A stretch of DNA of 64,000 bases from Amoebophrya sp. A120 (GCA_905178155.1 CAJINV010000003.1:2375065-2439064), one strand, 5' to 3'; positions 25,501-57,625 are shown, numbered from the stretch's first letter. Numbers and translations are program-made. Notes: generated by a model not told the origin, from the letters alone.

Positions 25501-28500
25501 AAAGTGATAAATAAATCTGTGCTGCGTGTAGTACTGCAGTCTCAGAAGCTGAAAAAATGGTGCTGAATGCTCGGCGTATGTTGACAAAAAAAAGCGACAT
25601 CACCAAACAAGTCGAATGAAATCATAAATCGCAGGTTGGGTTTTCCGATCGGCTGTACCTGCCGTTCAACCTCTCGCTGAAGCACATCAAGATTCGGCAG
25701 AACCTGGAGGTGTTCACCGGCACGCGGCCCGAGTTGTACGACGTGACGCGGTGCGCACCGGAGATTTTCGAGATTGTGGAGCAGCTGCGCGAGCTGAAGC
25801 GCGCCACCCGCATCCACCACGCCAAGGAGTACTTGAAGTGCTTTCCCCGGGTGGAGTGCTTGATCAAGCTGGAGATTCTCTATCAAATGCAAAAATGTCT
25901 GGGTCTGGAAGATTCTGGGACTTGTCATGCTCATTTTGCATGAGCCATGACGTCTGTGATGCATGCCCTAGCATCACAGATTTTTTCGGAGCTTCTTGAT
26001 GCCCATTCCGCACGACAAATGCCATCTCCGCCTAGCAAAAATTGCCTTTTCCTGGAATCCAAACGCAGCATCACAAGTTCCAACTCTTCCAGACCCAGAC
26101 TCTTTTGCATTTGATATTCTCTACGGCGACTACATTTCGGACGAGGAGTATGGAAGCGTCAGGTTTGAAATCGTCAAAGTTGAAATAATCTGTAATGCAT
26201 AAAATGCATGATCCGAGGTACTTGTGTTGCAGAGCAGGCAGATGACGCCATTGTAAGCCTGTTTGGGGTTACAGCTCGAGCTGTTAAAGTAGGATGAGAA
26301 AATCACTCTTCTTTGCCTAAACAGCATGACAAACTGGATTTAGGGACCACCGAAATTTGTCATGCGCCACTTGGGAACTGGGTTCCAACTGGCATCCATT
26401 TTATGCATGACAAATTATTTCAACTTTGTCGATTTCAACTCTGACACATCCATAAGGAGCTGGCGGGCGGCATTTCGCCGGAGCTGGCGGCGTACCTGAA
26501 GCGCAAGGCCGAGGAGGAGGCGGAGCTGGCGGCGGAGCAGGGTCTCGAGGTGCCGCACGAACAGCCGGTGGCGGTGGACACGGACGGGGTGGCCCCGACC
26601 GCGTCGAAGCGGGCCAGCGAGAAGATGACGCGCAAAGCCGCCCTGGACACGCAGAACACGGCGTTCGAGGTGGCGGAAGAGTTGAGGAGGACAAAGTCGG
26701 TGCCTATCAAAAGCAAACATGTCTGGGGCTGGAAGAGTGCAAGGTTTATTGTTATGCGCGTTTTGGATAGCCCGCAATGTCTGTGATGTATGCCCTAGCT
26801 GCATCACAGGCTTTCTTGTGCGGCCCTCCTAATGCCTGTCCTGCATGAGAAATGCCCGCCGCCCTGCAGCATAGACTGGATTGCTCTACTTGCGGTTCAC
26901 GCAATGCAGATTTTTTGAGCGTTCGAAGGCAGCATCACAGCTTGTAACCTTCCAGACTCAGTAGACACATTTGCAATGCATAGTGCCCAACCTGGTGCGA
27001 CGGAACATGGCGGAGGTGCACCAGGCATCGGAGGACAACACGCGGTTCAAGTCCATTACCAACTGTAAAAATGTCTTGGTCTGGAAGAATTCATGTTTGT
27101 CATGCTTGTCTGGCATGACTCTTAAATCTGTCATGCATGTTACCCAAGCGCTCCGTTTTTCTGTGATGCAGAAGCGCAGTTTGTCATGCAGAATAGGCAA
27201 CACCTAGGAGCTCAGAAACTTGTCATGCTAAGCCAGCCTCTGTAGCCTCATCATGAGACGCCACCCAGCATCACAAGTTTCCAGACCCAGACATTTTTAC
27301 TTTTGATATCCATGAGCAAAGTGACGCTGGACCTGGAAACCTTCCTCGACCCGCAGGAGGAAGTGTTCATCTACAGCGGGCAGAAGCTGCAGAGCAGCGA
27401 ACTGCAGAAACAGTACATGCGGGCCCAGATGTGGCCGCTGCAGGAAAAGTGCATGTGGACGTACTCCCCGATCTACAACAGCAGCGCCTTCGAGTTCGAA
27501 GAGCTGCCCACCGGGCGCCCGGGGAACGTGGCGATGCGGGAGGAAGTGCCCGTAGTGGGCAAGGTGCCCTTCCAGTACCCCAAGGCGCGGGAATCGGAGG
27601 AGTACAAGAAACCGCAGAGCGACGTGTCGGACTTCCGCAAGTGGGAACTGGAAACCTTCCCGTGGGCCGAGAACGAGTGGCACGGTCTCGCCGTCGGCGC
27701 AGAAAGAAGGAAACCCATCAACGCGAAAAAAATCTTCGACGCAGAGAGGGTAAGGAAGTGCCTACTAAAGAAGAAATTTTTGCGTGCGATGATTTGTTTT
27801 TTGGTCGTCCTGAAAGTAGCTTACGTGTAAAATAACATACGTTTGTTTTGCTTTTGCTCGCCACAGTAACATGGACGTTCCTTGTTCGTCCTTCAATCGA
27901 CTGAAACGTACGTGACGCTTTCTGAATTCTAGTCTGTTCCTCTTCACACCGCACAGGTTCCGCACCTGCGGGAGCACAACGACCGGCCGTTCGACGCGAG
28001 CCTGATCGAGCGCCGAAACCGGGAGTTCGGACCCAAGAGCATGAACGAGACGGTGCACGAGGCTGGGGTGGTCTACGAGAACCACGTGATCGAGATCAAC
28101 CGCAAAGTATCAAGAAGAAAAATCCCCCCTTCCCATATCAGAACAGAGATCTGTGATGCAGATTTGTGGTCACAAATCAGCTTTTTCATGCTAGAAGGCA
28201 AAAGCTGCGGGCTTTAGTGCTGGCTGGCGTGGGAAAGCCTTGCGTCTTCAGCATGACAGGAGGCAACTGGAAGTGGGAAACAGCACGAAAAATTACCTGC
28301 AATTCAGGCCACAACTGCGTCTCTTGGCCTTCTAGCAATACAAGCCGATTTGTGTACTCAGATGCAGCGTCACAGGTTTCGTTTTCGATATGGGGAGGGG
28401 GGATTTTTCACTTTGATACAAGGAGAAGGAGATTCGCGAAGCCGGGCGCATCGGGCCCGACGTGATGGGGTTTTACAACAAGGACTACACCAAAAACGGT

Positions 28501-29458
28501 GTCACCGACATCGACCGCTACGAGCAGATTCTGAAGGACAAGCCAAACATGCGCGCCATCCGGTTCGATCAGAAATTCATGCCGAAACCGATTCGAAAGA
28601 AGTACGGGAAGCACAGTATTCTAGAGAAAATTATCAAGCCGTTGCCGTCCTCCATGCGCATCGCAGAAAACTGGGACGAAACCGCGCCGCAGGTACAGAT
28701 CTTTGCTGCTCGATCGAATTTGTTCACACATGTGCTCGCATATTTTTAGTGCAAATGACTTGGTTGCAATGTTGGGGGGCGCAGAACACACTAATCTCAC
28801 TCTGATTATAGGTCGAGTACGAGGCTCGCATGCGGCAGAACGACGGAGATGCGCCGTATAATGTGAAGACGAACCTGTACCTGAGTCGTCACACGGAGAA
28901 GGACCTGCCGGGCTTCAACCCGACCTTGTTCACGAAGCGGAGCTTCCACGTGGGCAATATGGGTCCGGCGCCGTGGAGGCATCAGCAGATGACCTTCAAC
29001 AAGAACCGTACCCGCAGTCTGAAACAGATCAGCACCTCCATTCGACATCCGGCCTATGATTACGAAAAGAAATACGTTTCAAATCGAGATTTCGACAGGT
29101 AATTGCTACGAGCAGGGCCTTGTATTTAGTTGGCAGAAAGACAAAGTATGACTGGAGAATTCAAATTCTATCACTCTGTATTGCAGTTAAAAACCAAGGC
29201 AGAGTGATCGCACGGTTACACGGCCTGCCCAATCTTATCAGGAAATCGATCAAGAATATCAAAAGCCAGCACTCGAAAAACAACAGGTACTCGCGTCCCG
29301 CACGGAACTACGCGCGTGAAGACTTCATCGAGAAGAACGCTGCGAGAGAGGACATGTCTCCAATGGAACGAACGGGGCCGAAGTTCACCTACACGCAGCC
29401 TCTGCGCGAGCTCCAATACACGGGTTCGCTGGAGGACACGCGAAAAAATAACTACTAG
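22573..29458 (+). CDS. Large 14-exon protein, tentatively cilia/flagella-associated CFAP92(KIAA1257)-like
   Basis: In-frame exons 22573-22731, 22894-23208, 23394-23862, 24035-24500, 24681-25395, 25635-25880, 26122-26148, 26460-26704, 26988-27056, 27314-27749, 27957-28107, 28424-28692, 28812-29098, 29287-29458 (8 GT-AG introns and 5 IR/DR elements). MAPKPKKK start. Motifs LLIEVHDRD, PHGLARF and DILTGY..LD..CRIMVVEGL recall CFAP92-like proteins, from memory and unverified. Confidence 0.7.
25881..26116 (+). mobile_element. Introner family A element (236 bp), DR TTCTC/TTCTC, forward orientation
   Basis: TIR TATCAAATGCAAAAATGTCTGGGTCTGGAAGA / TCTTCCAGACCCAGACTCTTTTGCATTTGATA. Removal gives LEIL-YGDY. 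Confidence 0.95.
26149..26454. mobile_element. Introner-like element with ~58-bp TIR (306 bp), DR AGGAG/AGGAG
   Basis: TATGGAAGCGTCAGGTTTGAAATCGTCAAAGTTGAAATAAT... pairs with ...ATTATTTCAACTTTGTCGATTTCAACTCTGACACATCCATA. Removal gives SDEE-LAGG. Confidence 0.95.
26705..26982 (+). mobile_element. Introner family A element (278 bp), DR GTGCC/GTGCC, forward orientation
   Basis: TATCAAAAGCAAACATGTCTGGGGCTGGAAG ... CTTCCAGACTCAGTAGACACATTTGCAATGCATA. Removal gives KSVPNLVRR. Confidence 0.92.
27057..27308 (-). mobile_element. Introner family A element (252 bp), DR TCCAT/TCCAT, reverse orientation
   Basis: TACCAACTGTAAAAATGTCTTGGTCTGGAA ... TTCCAGACCCAGACATTTTTACTTTTGATA. Removal gives RFKSMSKVT. 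The internal marker TTTGTCATGCAGAATAGGCA is the reverse complement of that in forward copies. Confidence 0.92.
28108..28418. mobile_element. Introner-like element (311 bp), DR CAAAG/CAAGG
   Basis: TATCAAGAAGAAAAATCCCCCCTTCCCATATC ... GATATGGGGAGGGGGGATTTTTCACTTTGATA. Removal gives NRKEKEIRE. Confidence 0.92.
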
Positions 29459-56709: not shown

Positions 56710-57625
56710 ATGGCACAAAGGAGGATCGCAAAGGAACTTCAGGATCTGGGAAAGGACCCTCCAGCATCTTGCAGCGCCGGGCCAGTGGGGGATGACATCT
56801 TTGCGTGGCAAGCGACGATAATGGGGCCGCCGGACTCGCCATACGCAGGCGGCGTTTTCTTCCTCAATATCGCGTTTCCAACCGACTACCCCTTCAAGCC
56901 GCCGAAGGTGAGCTTCGTCACCAAAATCTACCACTGCAACGTCCATACGAATGGTACGATAGTACTTATTAGTGTTTCATCGTTTAATATTCCAGATCTA
57001 TTGGCTGAAATTAAAATTTGCTTTTTTATTGCGAGACACTGCATTGTCTTATTTGTCGCATGATTCATTCGTGATTTGAACTTCGTTTTTATTGGTACGT
57101 GCGAAAGTCATCATGTCGTTGCCGCGAAAAACAAAAATGACGACATCAAAACAGGGTCCATTTGTTTGGACATTTTGAAGGACCAGTGGTCGCCAGCGCT
57201 GACGATCTCCAAAGTGCTGTTGTCGATTTCGTCATTGCTCTGCGATCCGAATCCGAACGACCCCTTTGTTCCAGAGATCGCGCAATTGTACATCAAGGAC
57301 CGGTATCAAGTGCAAAAATGTCTGGGTCTAGAAGATTCTGAGACTTGTCATGCAGTTTTTCCAAGCTTCGCCAAGTCTGGAATGCAGGGCCTGGCATCAC
57401 AGGCTCTGCCGCCCCTTGGTGATGCCTATTCTGCATGAGAAATGCCCTCTCAGAATGGCCAGAGCTGGGGACTTCTTGCAAGTCATGCAACACAGATTTT
57501 TGTATGATCCGCAACACGCATCACAAGTTCGCATCCTTCCAGACCCAGACATTTTTGCAATTGATAACCGAAAGAAACACGACACGCACGCACGGGAGTG
57601 GACGCAAAAATACGGAGCTGCATGA
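56710..57625 (+). CDS. UBE2D: Ubiquitin-conjugating enzyme E2, UBC4/5 (UBE2D) type
   Basis: Exons 56710-56953, 57155-57303, 57572-57625. [13 protein letters not shown]...[44 protein letters not shown]...[16 protein letters not shown]. Confidence 0.96.
57304..57566 (+). mobile_element. Introner family A element (263 bp), DR ACCGG/ACCGA, forward orientation
   Basis: TATCAAGTGCAAAAATGTCTGGGTCTAGAAG ... CTTCCAGACCCAGACATTTTTGCAATTGATA. Interrupts the conserved C-terminal helix of the E2. Confidence 0.96.

What the first reader, a model, noticed from the sequence alone, without database searches (positions are those of the whole stretch)
25881..57566. Family A elements sit in both orientations in same-strand genes, implying orientation-independent excision
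Seen: the internal marker (A)TGCC.(A/G)T.C.GCA(T/C)GA(G/C)AAA is on the + strand in the copies at 25881, 26705 and 57304. It is on the - strand in the copies at 27057 and 31259; the ORF track shows PI(L/P)H(E/D)K peptides on opposite strands. All host genes are on +. Known: spliceosomal donor, branch and acceptor signals are strand-specific, and typical introners are sense-oriented. Inference: the information for removal is symmetric (TIR stem + DR), as expected for a structure-guided RNA endonuclease/ligase route, a TIR-binding adaptor, or DNA-level excision.
Basis: partly seen in the sequence, partly recalled or inferred. Interest (0 to 1): 0.85.

Follow-up and report, generated by a model that had tools for sequence, protein, structure and literature searches.

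The report
Two-way transposon introns in Amoebophrya
Small transposon copies inside genes of a marine parasitic dinoflagellate are missing from the spliced transcript contigs whichever way round they inserted; the elements are already described, and their mirror-image ends likely supply splice signals to a relaxed spliceosome rather than to a separate enzyme.

Summary
Observation confirmed. The window is Amoebophrya sp. A120 and the elements are its published introners (TAT…ATA inverted ends, 5-nt target duplication, TSD). Family A has three copies one way and three the other in + strand genes; in a related assembly the ratio to host strand is 32:38. Transcript contigs lack copies of both orientations (directly for some, by length arithmetic for others).

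Both-way introners with ordinary splice sites are known (Polarella). Here the stem base shows no G·U excess or covariation, DNA contigs show no empty sites, and removal looks transcript-polar. Five mismatched TSDs fit one cut register, N|TAY…ATA-NNNN. That puts U+2/A+3 at the donor and A at −7, as in most local GT-AG introns.

Best reading (0.55): a U1-less, AG-independent U2 spliceosome reads the symmetric end motif as donor and branch site. The register rests on few junctions; one orthologue comparison favours a cut one base earlier. I did not find the orientation neutrality or the register in print. The scan's earlier notes hold other introners, not this system.

The parts
25881..26116 (+). 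Family A introner, reference orientation, 236 nt, perfect 5-nt TSD TTCTC
   Evidence: removed in X2 contig 1 by 582-nt arithmetic
26149..26454 (.). Introner of another family (E), 306 nt, TSD AGGAG
   Evidence: removed in the same contig
26705..26982 (+). Family A introner, reference orientation, 278 nt, TSD GTGCC
   Evidence: removed in the same contig
27057..27308 (-). Family A introner, opposite orientation, 252 nt, TSD TCCAT, 5' end TAC
   Evidence: the contig resumes at 27309
28108..28418 (.). Family C introner, TSD CAAAG/CAAGG; junction needs k=4 or 5; at k=4 it is a canonical GT-AG intron
   Evidence: (piece resumes at 28423; 151-nt gap equals exon 27956-28106)
31259..31520 (-). Family A introner, opposite orientation, 262 nt, TSD AAAAG, splitting the C2H2 finger of OTU1
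   Evidence: X2 contig 2 stops at 31253 with 191 further letters whose place was not listed; database protein P0001 holds the spliced product
34811..35116 (-).
   Evidence: no RNA laid on this stretch
44855..45164 (.). Family B introner, TSD TCGTT/TCCTT, k=3-5
   Evidence: joint 44852-45168 in 3 of 4 runs
45431..45757 (+). Canonical GT-AG intron with a perfect 5-nt repeat ACAGG and TAT...ATA ends in the k=4 geometry; possibly an old introner
54904..55135 (.). Family C introner, opposite in orientation to 28108, TSD CCAGA/CGAGG, k=2-4
   Evidence: joint 54900-55138 in 2 of 4 runs; orientation score 67 opposite vs 36 same, shuffle max 34
57304..57566 (+). Family A introner, reference orientation, 263 nt, in a ubiquitin-conjugating enzyme gene, TSD ACCGG/ACCGA, k=0-4
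   Evidence: joint 57298-57567 in 4 of 4 runs
59385..59664 (.). Family D introner, TSD AGACA
   Evidence: joint 59378-59664
59715..60020 (.). Family B introner, TSD GACGG
   Evidence: joint 59708-60020
60479..60758 (.). Family D introner, 95% like 59385, TSD CGAAA
   Evidence: joint 60472-60758
62254..62471 (.). Family B introner, TSD AGAGC/AGGGT, k=3-4
   Evidence: joint 62251-62475 in 3 of 4 runs

Best explanation
These are MITE-like introners of Amoebophrya A120 that are missing from spliced transcript contigs in either orientation, and they are likely removed from the pre-mRNA by a relaxed U2-type spliceosome that reads their mirror-image end motif. Shown: TIR plus 5-nt TSD anatomy, both orientations with no bias, removal of the element plus one TSD's worth of bases, and no required dinucleotide in the TSD. 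Inferred: the cut falls one base before the 5' TIR and four bases after the 3' TIR (k=4), so every intron reads N-U-A-(U/C) at the donor and has the first A of the closing AUA at -7. Inferred further: U+2/A+3 serve as the donor, A-7 as the branch point, and the acceptor is set by counting six bases from the branch rather than by AG. The long inner hairpin (TIR positions about 11-30) would bring the ends together, possibly in place of the U1 snRNA that Farhat et al. could not find. Because both signals come from one word and its reverse complement, orientation does not matter.
For: Removal in both orientations: 582 of 582 nt; seven introner joints. Orientation to host strand is 32:38 among 70 confidently stranded family A copies of a related assembly, and 41:46 among 87 with propagated strands. 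k=4 is the only single register that fits all five RNA junctions with mismatched TSDs, and the oppositely oriented family C pair excludes a register that flips with the element. At k=4, 14 of 14 window elements have U+2, A+3 and A-7; 13 of 14 RNA-supported GT-AG introns have A+3 and 11 of 14 have A-7 (p=0.035 against neighbouring positions, 0.003 against a wider background). The 3' arm (positions 4-16) is richer in A than the mirrored 5' arm in 55 elements and poorer in 26, of 141 (p=0.0017; 42:20 and p=0.007 among 104 confident ones). There is no such effect at positions 17-90, and the shift is toward the A-rich, G-poor ends of the canonical introns. With terminal bases left free, none of the real copies with a known host strand changed U+2 or A+3, while three changed the mirror bases. 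NNAG|G targets number 7 of 169 against 3.1 expected, and the mirror word 1 (p=0.036). Polarella class 12 uses the same NNAG|G register. A120 has nearly all spliceosomal proteins, with U1 snRNA not detected. A tunicate spliceosome handles genomes with 95% non-GT/AG introns. All nine predominant A120 non-canonical classes in Farhat's Table S4 have T at +2.
Against: The chance that five independent random registers share a common value is 0.19. Only 28108 forces k of 4 or more, and at k=4 it is an ordinary GT-AG intron; without it k=3 fits as well and an element-tied register is not excluded. At L125 the A120 orthologue carries the residue of the downstream TSD copy at position 4, which by parsimony favours k of 3 or less (83% identity, so not decisive). 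A-7 is not invariant: two confidently stranded copies have G or C there (L003, L093). Canonical acceptors are A-rich throughout (A at -4 in 12 of 14), so A-7 may be partly compositional. Introner +5 is mostly C, never seen in the 14 canonical donors. TAT...ATA conservation is also expected from transposase needs. An aligner that seeks half-canonical ends reproduces the top Table S4 classes. The 3'-arm result is the best of 20 tests per set (about p=0.03 after correction), and in family A the divergence asymmetry comes mostly from one orientation (22:6 vs 18:17). No lariat, snRNP or raw-read evidence was available.
Confidence: 0.55

Rival explanations
1. A spliceosome-independent RNA pathway: an endonuclease guided by the TIR hairpin cuts at fixed offsets from the stem and a ligase joins the exons, as proposed by the first reader and as suspected for euglenid nonconventional introns.
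For: Very stable hairpins in both orientations (z = -9.9 and -9.3). No dinucleotide requirement at either junction. No orientation bias. U1 snRNA not detected. A fixed staggered offset from a stem is what such an enzyme would give. Euglenid TIR introns leave as circles without lariat form (review text).
Against: The stem base is poorly paired (positions 4, 5 and 7 Watson-Crick in 117, 117 and 84 of 183), with no G·U excess (55 G·U vs 88 A·C at positions 1-10) and no covariation there. The best register coincides with the canonical donor and turns NNAGG targets into ordinary GT-AG introns. The arms differ in composition by transcript polarity.
Confidence: 0.22
2. Spliceosomal removal, but guided by a TIR-binding or hairpin-binding protein adaptor with a different or loose register (k=3 or variable), the branch point lying elsewhere.
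For: k=3 fits four of five RNA junctions and L125. At k=3 the last A of the TIR sits at -4, where 12 of 14 canonical introns have A. Farhat et al. call the splice sites variable relative to the hairpin. A-7 has exceptions.
Against: 28108 needs k of 4 or more. k=3 gives no donor-like 5' end. One joint was listed per element, with no second form, though contigs drop rare variants. No YTRAY-type motif upstream: 2 of 87 family A copies at about -60 to -12.
Confidence: 0.16
3. Programmed DNA-level excision, like ciliate IES removal, in some nuclei or life stage.
For: Transposon anatomy, TA-bounded ends and orientation blindness fit a transposase-like cut.
Against: In the DNA-like run X5, unique contigs run 22-26 nt into the elements instead of breaking at the TSD, and one contig spans the whole 26705 copy at single-copy depth. 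No empty-site joint was among the 15 listed; 143 were not shown, X5 may be the window's own source, and its life stage is unknown. The contigs that lack the elements also lack the GT-AG introns. A strand-symmetric repair would be expected to give both TSD alleles, and only one was listed per element.
Confidence: 0.05
4. Reverse-transcriptase template switching across the hairpin between the direct repeats, i.e. false introns.
For: A hairpin flanked by short direct repeats is the known substrate of this artefact (recalled).
Against: 119 of 121 stranded elements would shift the frame or add an in-frame stop if kept. The 31259 copy splits a zinc finger conserved in A25 and in animals. A switch at the stem base would keep the downstream TSD copy, whereas the upstream base is kept at positions 2, 3, 3 and 4.
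Confidence: 0.02

Closest known systems
Amoebophrya A25/A120 introner elements (Farhat et al. 2021, PMC7789003; read: abstract, sections 10, 11, 12, 16, 25, keyword passages, supplement parts 2-3 of 5; figures not seen)
   Same: Same organism (P0001 is 100% identical) and same anatomy: inverted repeat starting TAT, seven variable bases, then As; 3-5-nt direct repeat; RNA-supported non-canonical introns; mechanism stated as open.
   Different: The passages read do not treat element orientation relative to the host gene ('strand' 0 hits; 'orientation' 4 hits, the passage shown concerns gene order) and leave the cut position undetermined. The 50:50 orientation, the candidate register and the arm asymmetry are additions.
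Polarella glacialis introner-like elements, classes 12 and 1, 2, 3, 6, 7, 8, 10 (Roy et al. preprint 10.1101/2020.10.14.339549; keyword passages only)
   Same: TIR/TSD DNA elements that make introns. Several classes work in either orientation. Class 12 has a 5-nt TSD, with the donor formed from the last TSD base plus the first element base and the acceptor inside the TSD, which is the k=4 geometry.
   Different: There the TSD must supply G and AG (NNAGG or NAGGH), class 12 works in one orientation, and two-way classes are biased. Here any TSD is used (NNAGG in 7 of 169) and there is no bias.
Fritillaria borealis non-canonical introns (Soo et al. 2026, PMC13326754: abstract, sections 21 and 30, keyword passages; Henriet et al. 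2019 seen only through the review PMC11282704, section 6)
   Same: MITE-derived TIR/TSD introns with non-GT/AG ends, removed by a modified U2 spliceosome.
   Different: These keep preferred termini (AG/AC, AG/AT, a YAY triplet) and U1 is retained; the Amoebophrya junction bases are free apart from the TIR-derived ones.
Euglenid nonconventional introns (through review PMC11282704, section 6)
   Same: TIR hairpin at a fixed offset from non-canonical junctions, TSD-like repeats, MITE origin suspected, mechanism unknown.
   Different: CAG/CTG stem at +4 to +6 and -8 to -6, with circular excision products; here the stem starts TAT/ATA at +2 and -5 (if k=4) and the products are unknown.
Spliceosomes with a fixed branch-to-acceptor distance (Entamoeba invadens at -8, also diplomonads, parabasalids, some yeasts; preprint 10.1101/2022.06.08.495308, keyword passages)
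   Same: Precedent for an acceptor set at a fixed short distance from the branch A.
   Different: Those introns keep the terminal AG and a clear branch motif; here AG is dispensable and the branch at -7 is only inferred.

Membership tests
Amoebophrya A120 introner elements | Terminal inverted repeat beginning TAT, seven variable bases, then at least three A | tested here: met
   Window: 12 of 14 start TAT and 2 TAC; AAA at positions 11-13 in 11 of 14. Loci: TAT at both ends in 174 of 198 hits of a search with free ends.
Amoebophrya A120 introner elements | 3-5-nt direct repeat at the exon boundaries | tested here: met
   5-nt TSD, perfect in 8 of 14 and with 1-2 mismatches in 6 of 14.
Amoebophrya A120 introner elements | Removed from transcripts, with non-canonical ends | tested here: met
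The runs are contigs whose RNA nature is the tool's guess.
Amoebophrya A120 introner elements | Repeated family spread over the genome | tested here: met
U2 spliceosomal introns | GT (or GC) ... AG termini | tested here: not met
   1 of 14 window elements and 7 of 169 loci elements are GT-AG at k=4; other registers give 0-2 of 169.
U2 spliceosomal introns | Donor-like +2/+3 and a branch adenosine near the 3' end | tested here: inconclusive
   U+2, A+3 and A-7 in 14 of 14 if k=4, shared with 13 of 14 and 11 of 14 canonical introns; the register is not proven and A-7 has two exceptions.
U2 spliceosomal introns | Lariat intermediate and snRNP dependence | not testable with these tools
   No raw reads of this strain mapped (2 reads each in X9 and X10).
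Polarella class 12 ILE | TSD NNAGG or NAGGH; introns in one orientation only | tested here: not met
   AGG at TSD positions 3-5 in 7 and at 2-4 in 1 of 169; orientation 32:38.
Euglenid nonconventional introns | CAG/CTG stem at +4 to +6 and -8 to -6 | tested here: not met
   Ends are TAT/ATA.
Euglenid nonconventional introns | Excised as full-length circles without lariat | not testable with these tools
   Needs RNA end mapping.
MITE (non-autonomous TIR DNA transposon) | Short, TIR-bounded, flanked by a TSD of fixed length, multicopy | tested here: met
   Median 262 nt, 5-nt TSD, multicopy.
MITE (non-autonomous TIR DNA transposon) | Autonomous transposase partner with the same ends | not testable with these tools
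   No whole genome is held. 25 window ORFs scanned against Pfam gave no transposase.

The most novel reading that the evidence does not exclude
Amoebophrya removes tens of thousands of transposon introns by a second splicing machine that is not the spliceosome: it recognises the symmetric TIR ends on the transcript, cuts one base before and four bases after them whatever the junction sequence or element orientation, and ligates the exons, making any exonic insertion of these MITEs silent.
Probability: 0.22. Interest if true: 0.9.

Novelty: already known. Interest (0 to 1): 0.52.

Why it matters
How Amoebophrya removes its non-canonical introns (over 60% of all introns, with no U1 snRNA detected) has been open since 2021. 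Orientation neutrality confines the signals to the symmetric ends, and mismatched TSDs give a way to read the true cut position from existing RNA-seq. That yields sharp tests: a single register k=4, and lariats at the A seven bases from the 3' end. If they hold, a spliceosome can define both ends of an intron from one palindromic transposon word with no G+1 and no AG, which would explain how these elements insert almost anywhere in exons at little cost. If lariats are absent, a new splicing pathway becomes the leading reading. The elements themselves, and two-way introners in general, are already described.

Tried and rejected
No whole genome is held, and the records behind the loci are not held as genomes, so the sample is the 64-kb window plus 258 kb of loci. 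No RNA holder was on record. The idea that both TSD copies are under coding constraint (7 of 8 window mismatches at third codon positions, counted by eye) failed in the larger set: 12 of 23 against 8.4 expected, p=0.09. Ab initio prediction of more canonical introns recovered 3 of 14 true ones exactly among 54 window predictions, so its 114 locus predictions, which show no -7 signal, were discarded. G·U enrichment and covariation tests for an RNA stem were negative except at position 10 (whole-arm p=0.05). A strand-biased upstream branch motif was not found. Farhat's Table S4 was set aside as independent proof of the register because a half-canonical-seeking aligner mimics it. The homologue search for L035 found nothing; the representative-protein search never ran. 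The family A TIR is absent from viral contigs by exact pattern. No Rfam family matched the window. The intron phase excess at k=4 (59/25/37) was not used, because target preference could cause it. Huff et al. 2016 was not held; Aureococcus is cited only through the Roy preprint. Figures 3 and S19-S25 of Farhat et al. could not be seen and may bear on the register and on A-7.

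
Full report
Organism and known system. The first exon of the OTU1 gene (30233-31258) is 100% identical to a protein named Amoebophrya sp. A120, with the A25 orthologue at 43%. The elements match the A120 introner elements of Farhat et al. 2021: inverted repeats starting TAT, seven variable bases, then As, with short direct repeats. A scan for TA...TA ends with TIR similarity and a 5-nt repeat, plus the 26705 copy delimited by hand, gives 14 elements in the window; three further hits were dropped as nested or weak. 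The families labelled A-E are my grouping by interior similarity.

The observation. The marker lies on + in the copies at 25881, 26705 and 57304 and on - in those at 27057 and 31259. Interior alignments confirm true inversion, and a sixth diverged copy at 34811 is also inverted. All host genes read on +.

Removal from transcripts. Contig 1 of run X2 leaves 582 letters between window 25395 and 27309. The four exon pieces left after removing the canonical intron and four elements, each with one TSD, sum to exactly 582. This covers two reference-orientation family A copies and one inverted copy. For the inverted copy at 31259, contig 2 stops at 31253, where a left-aligned joint would sit, and has 191 further letters whose place was not among the listed rows. 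The database protein P0001 contains the spliced product, with an intact zinc finger like that of A25 and animal OTU1. One search lists direct joints for seven more elements, including 57304 in 4 of 4 runs (two samples, one study). These runs are contigs and their RNA nature is the tool's guess, but they also lack the GT-AG introns. Efficiency could not be measured.

A larger sample. It is a related strain, 83% identical to A120 at one gene. These loci hold 233 distinct elements with usable flanks. A coding model trained on window genes gave a confident host strand for 121 (76 of 76 within-locus pairs agree); 48 more took their locus's strand and 64 stayed uncalled. Family A is 32:38 (70 of the 121) or 41:46 (87 of 169) relative to the host strand, so there is no bias. 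The sample leans toward copies with one consensus-like end. 119 of 121 would break the protein if kept. The TSD needs no particular bases; no position deviates from codon-matched expectation by more than z=2.0.

Where the cut falls. If the mRNA keeps the first k bases of the upstream TSD and the rest of the downstream one, the five mismatched copies with RNA give k = 4-5 (28108), 3-5 (44855), 2-4 (54904), 0-4 (57304) and 3-4 (62254). Only k=4 fits all. Because 28108 and 54904 are one family in opposite orientations, a register that flips with the element is excluded for that pair, so the geometry follows the transcript. The limits are real. A common value would arise by chance with probability 0.19. 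28108 at k=4 is a GT-AG intron and may be special; without it k=3 also fits. At L125 the A120 orthologue has the downstream copy's residue at position 4, which favours k of 3 or less by parsimony.

What k=4 implies. Every element then starts N-T-A-(T/C) and has A at -7. The 14 RNA-supported canonical introns have A+3 in 13 and A-7 in 11, within an A-rich acceptor region. One canonical intron, 45431-45757, has a perfect 5-nt repeat and TAT...ATA ends in this geometry. NNAG|G targets are mildly enriched, 7 against 3.1. Polarella class 12 uses the same register with a required NNAGG. The two arms are not equivalent with respect to transcription: positions 4-16 of the 3' arm are richer in A than the mirrored 5' arm, with no effect further in and no strand bias in the interior. 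With ends left free, changes were seen in the closing ATA (L003, L093, L016, L018, L028) and at +4 (L071, L072), but not at +2 or +3 in copies with a known strand; L040 has a changed end but no strand call. The two changes at -7 count against a strict branch point.

The elements fold into strong hairpins. But positions 4, 5 and 7 of the stem pair in only 46-64% of elements, G·U pairs are not favoured over A·C, and the arms covary only at position 10. Inner positions are nearly invariant and say nothing either way. This looks more like two conserved motifs than like a stem measured from its base, although it does not rule out a role for the inner helix.

DNA-level excision and artefact. In the DNA-like run X5, unique contigs run on into the elements and one spans a whole copy at single-copy depth, so no abundant empty allele is seen there. 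Only 15 of 158 joints were listed, the life stage is unknown, and the run may be the window's source. Reverse-transcriptase skipping does not explain the conserved proteins or which TSD bases are kept.

Mechanism. Most likely (0.55) a U2-type spliceosome without U1 and without an AG requirement takes N-U-A as donor and the A at -7 as branch, counts to the acceptor, and is helped by the inner hairpin. Fixed branch-to-acceptor spacing has precedent, as does spliceosomal handling of TIR-derived non-canonical introns. That the spliceosome normally depends on U+2 and a branch A is recalled general knowledge. Rivals are a non-spliceosomal RNA route (0.22), a spliceosome with an adaptor and another register (0.16), DNA excision (0.05) and artefact (0.02).

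Novelty. The elements are published and two-way introners are known. Searches for introner + both orientations + dinoflagellate (0 papers), introner + either orientation (the Roy preprint only), and Amoebophrya with splicing mechanism, branch point, lariat, U1 snRNA or orientation, plus keyword reads of the two Gozashti papers and a 2024 review, found no statement of orientation neutrality or of a fixed register for Amoebophrya. The library lacks most subscription journals and I could not see figures. Verdict: a known system, a correct observation, an overdrawn inference, and a testable mechanistic lead. Interest 0.52.

Noticed in passing
window 14050-17015: GC-rich stretch without Pfam hits in seven ORFs, with repeated AAGGAGAAAAGTC words near 14060-14130, their reverse complements at 16527-16650 ending in ...TTTGATA, a 40-nt tandem array (16105-16381) and a 21-nt array (16659-16929). 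It may be a larger mobile element with introner-like ends.
   Followed up: partly
window 38900-41260: Second GC-rich non-coding-looking stretch with three copies of a 41-nt partly palindromic word (39325, 39482, 40746) and nested inverted repeats at 39972-40323; no Pfam hit above cut-off in five ORFs.
   Followed up: partly
window 41530-49265: Three tandem syntaxin-like paralogues (repeat family D5; weak SNARE hit). The 44855 introner is in one of them; I saw none in the other two.
   Followed up: partly
window 11195-12571 and 17192-18568: Two paralogous intron-less ORFs of 458 aa flank the 13-17 kb repeat region.
   Followed up: no
window 25881-28418: Five introners within 2.5 kb of one 1183-aa gene, leaving exons as short as 27 and 69 nt.
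   Followed up: yes
loci L001-L146: Junction phase is uneven (59/25/37 for phases 0/1/2 at k=4, n=121) although the TSD needs no fixed sequence; unexplained.
   Followed up: partly
L128:71-327: An element in a CTT run whose flanks fit a 4- or 7-nt repeat rather than the usual 5-nt TSD.
   Followed up: no
L068:42-235, L068:2012-2206, L139:407-604: A different ~195-nt TIR family with ends like TGCAC-AACTCCCCC rather than TAT.
   Followed up: no
Farhat et al. Table S4 and section 11: Strain A25 elements start TTA-RR and its predominant non-canonical classes are all TT-NN, so T at +2 and A at +3 may be shared by both strains' unrelated introners.
   Followed up: no
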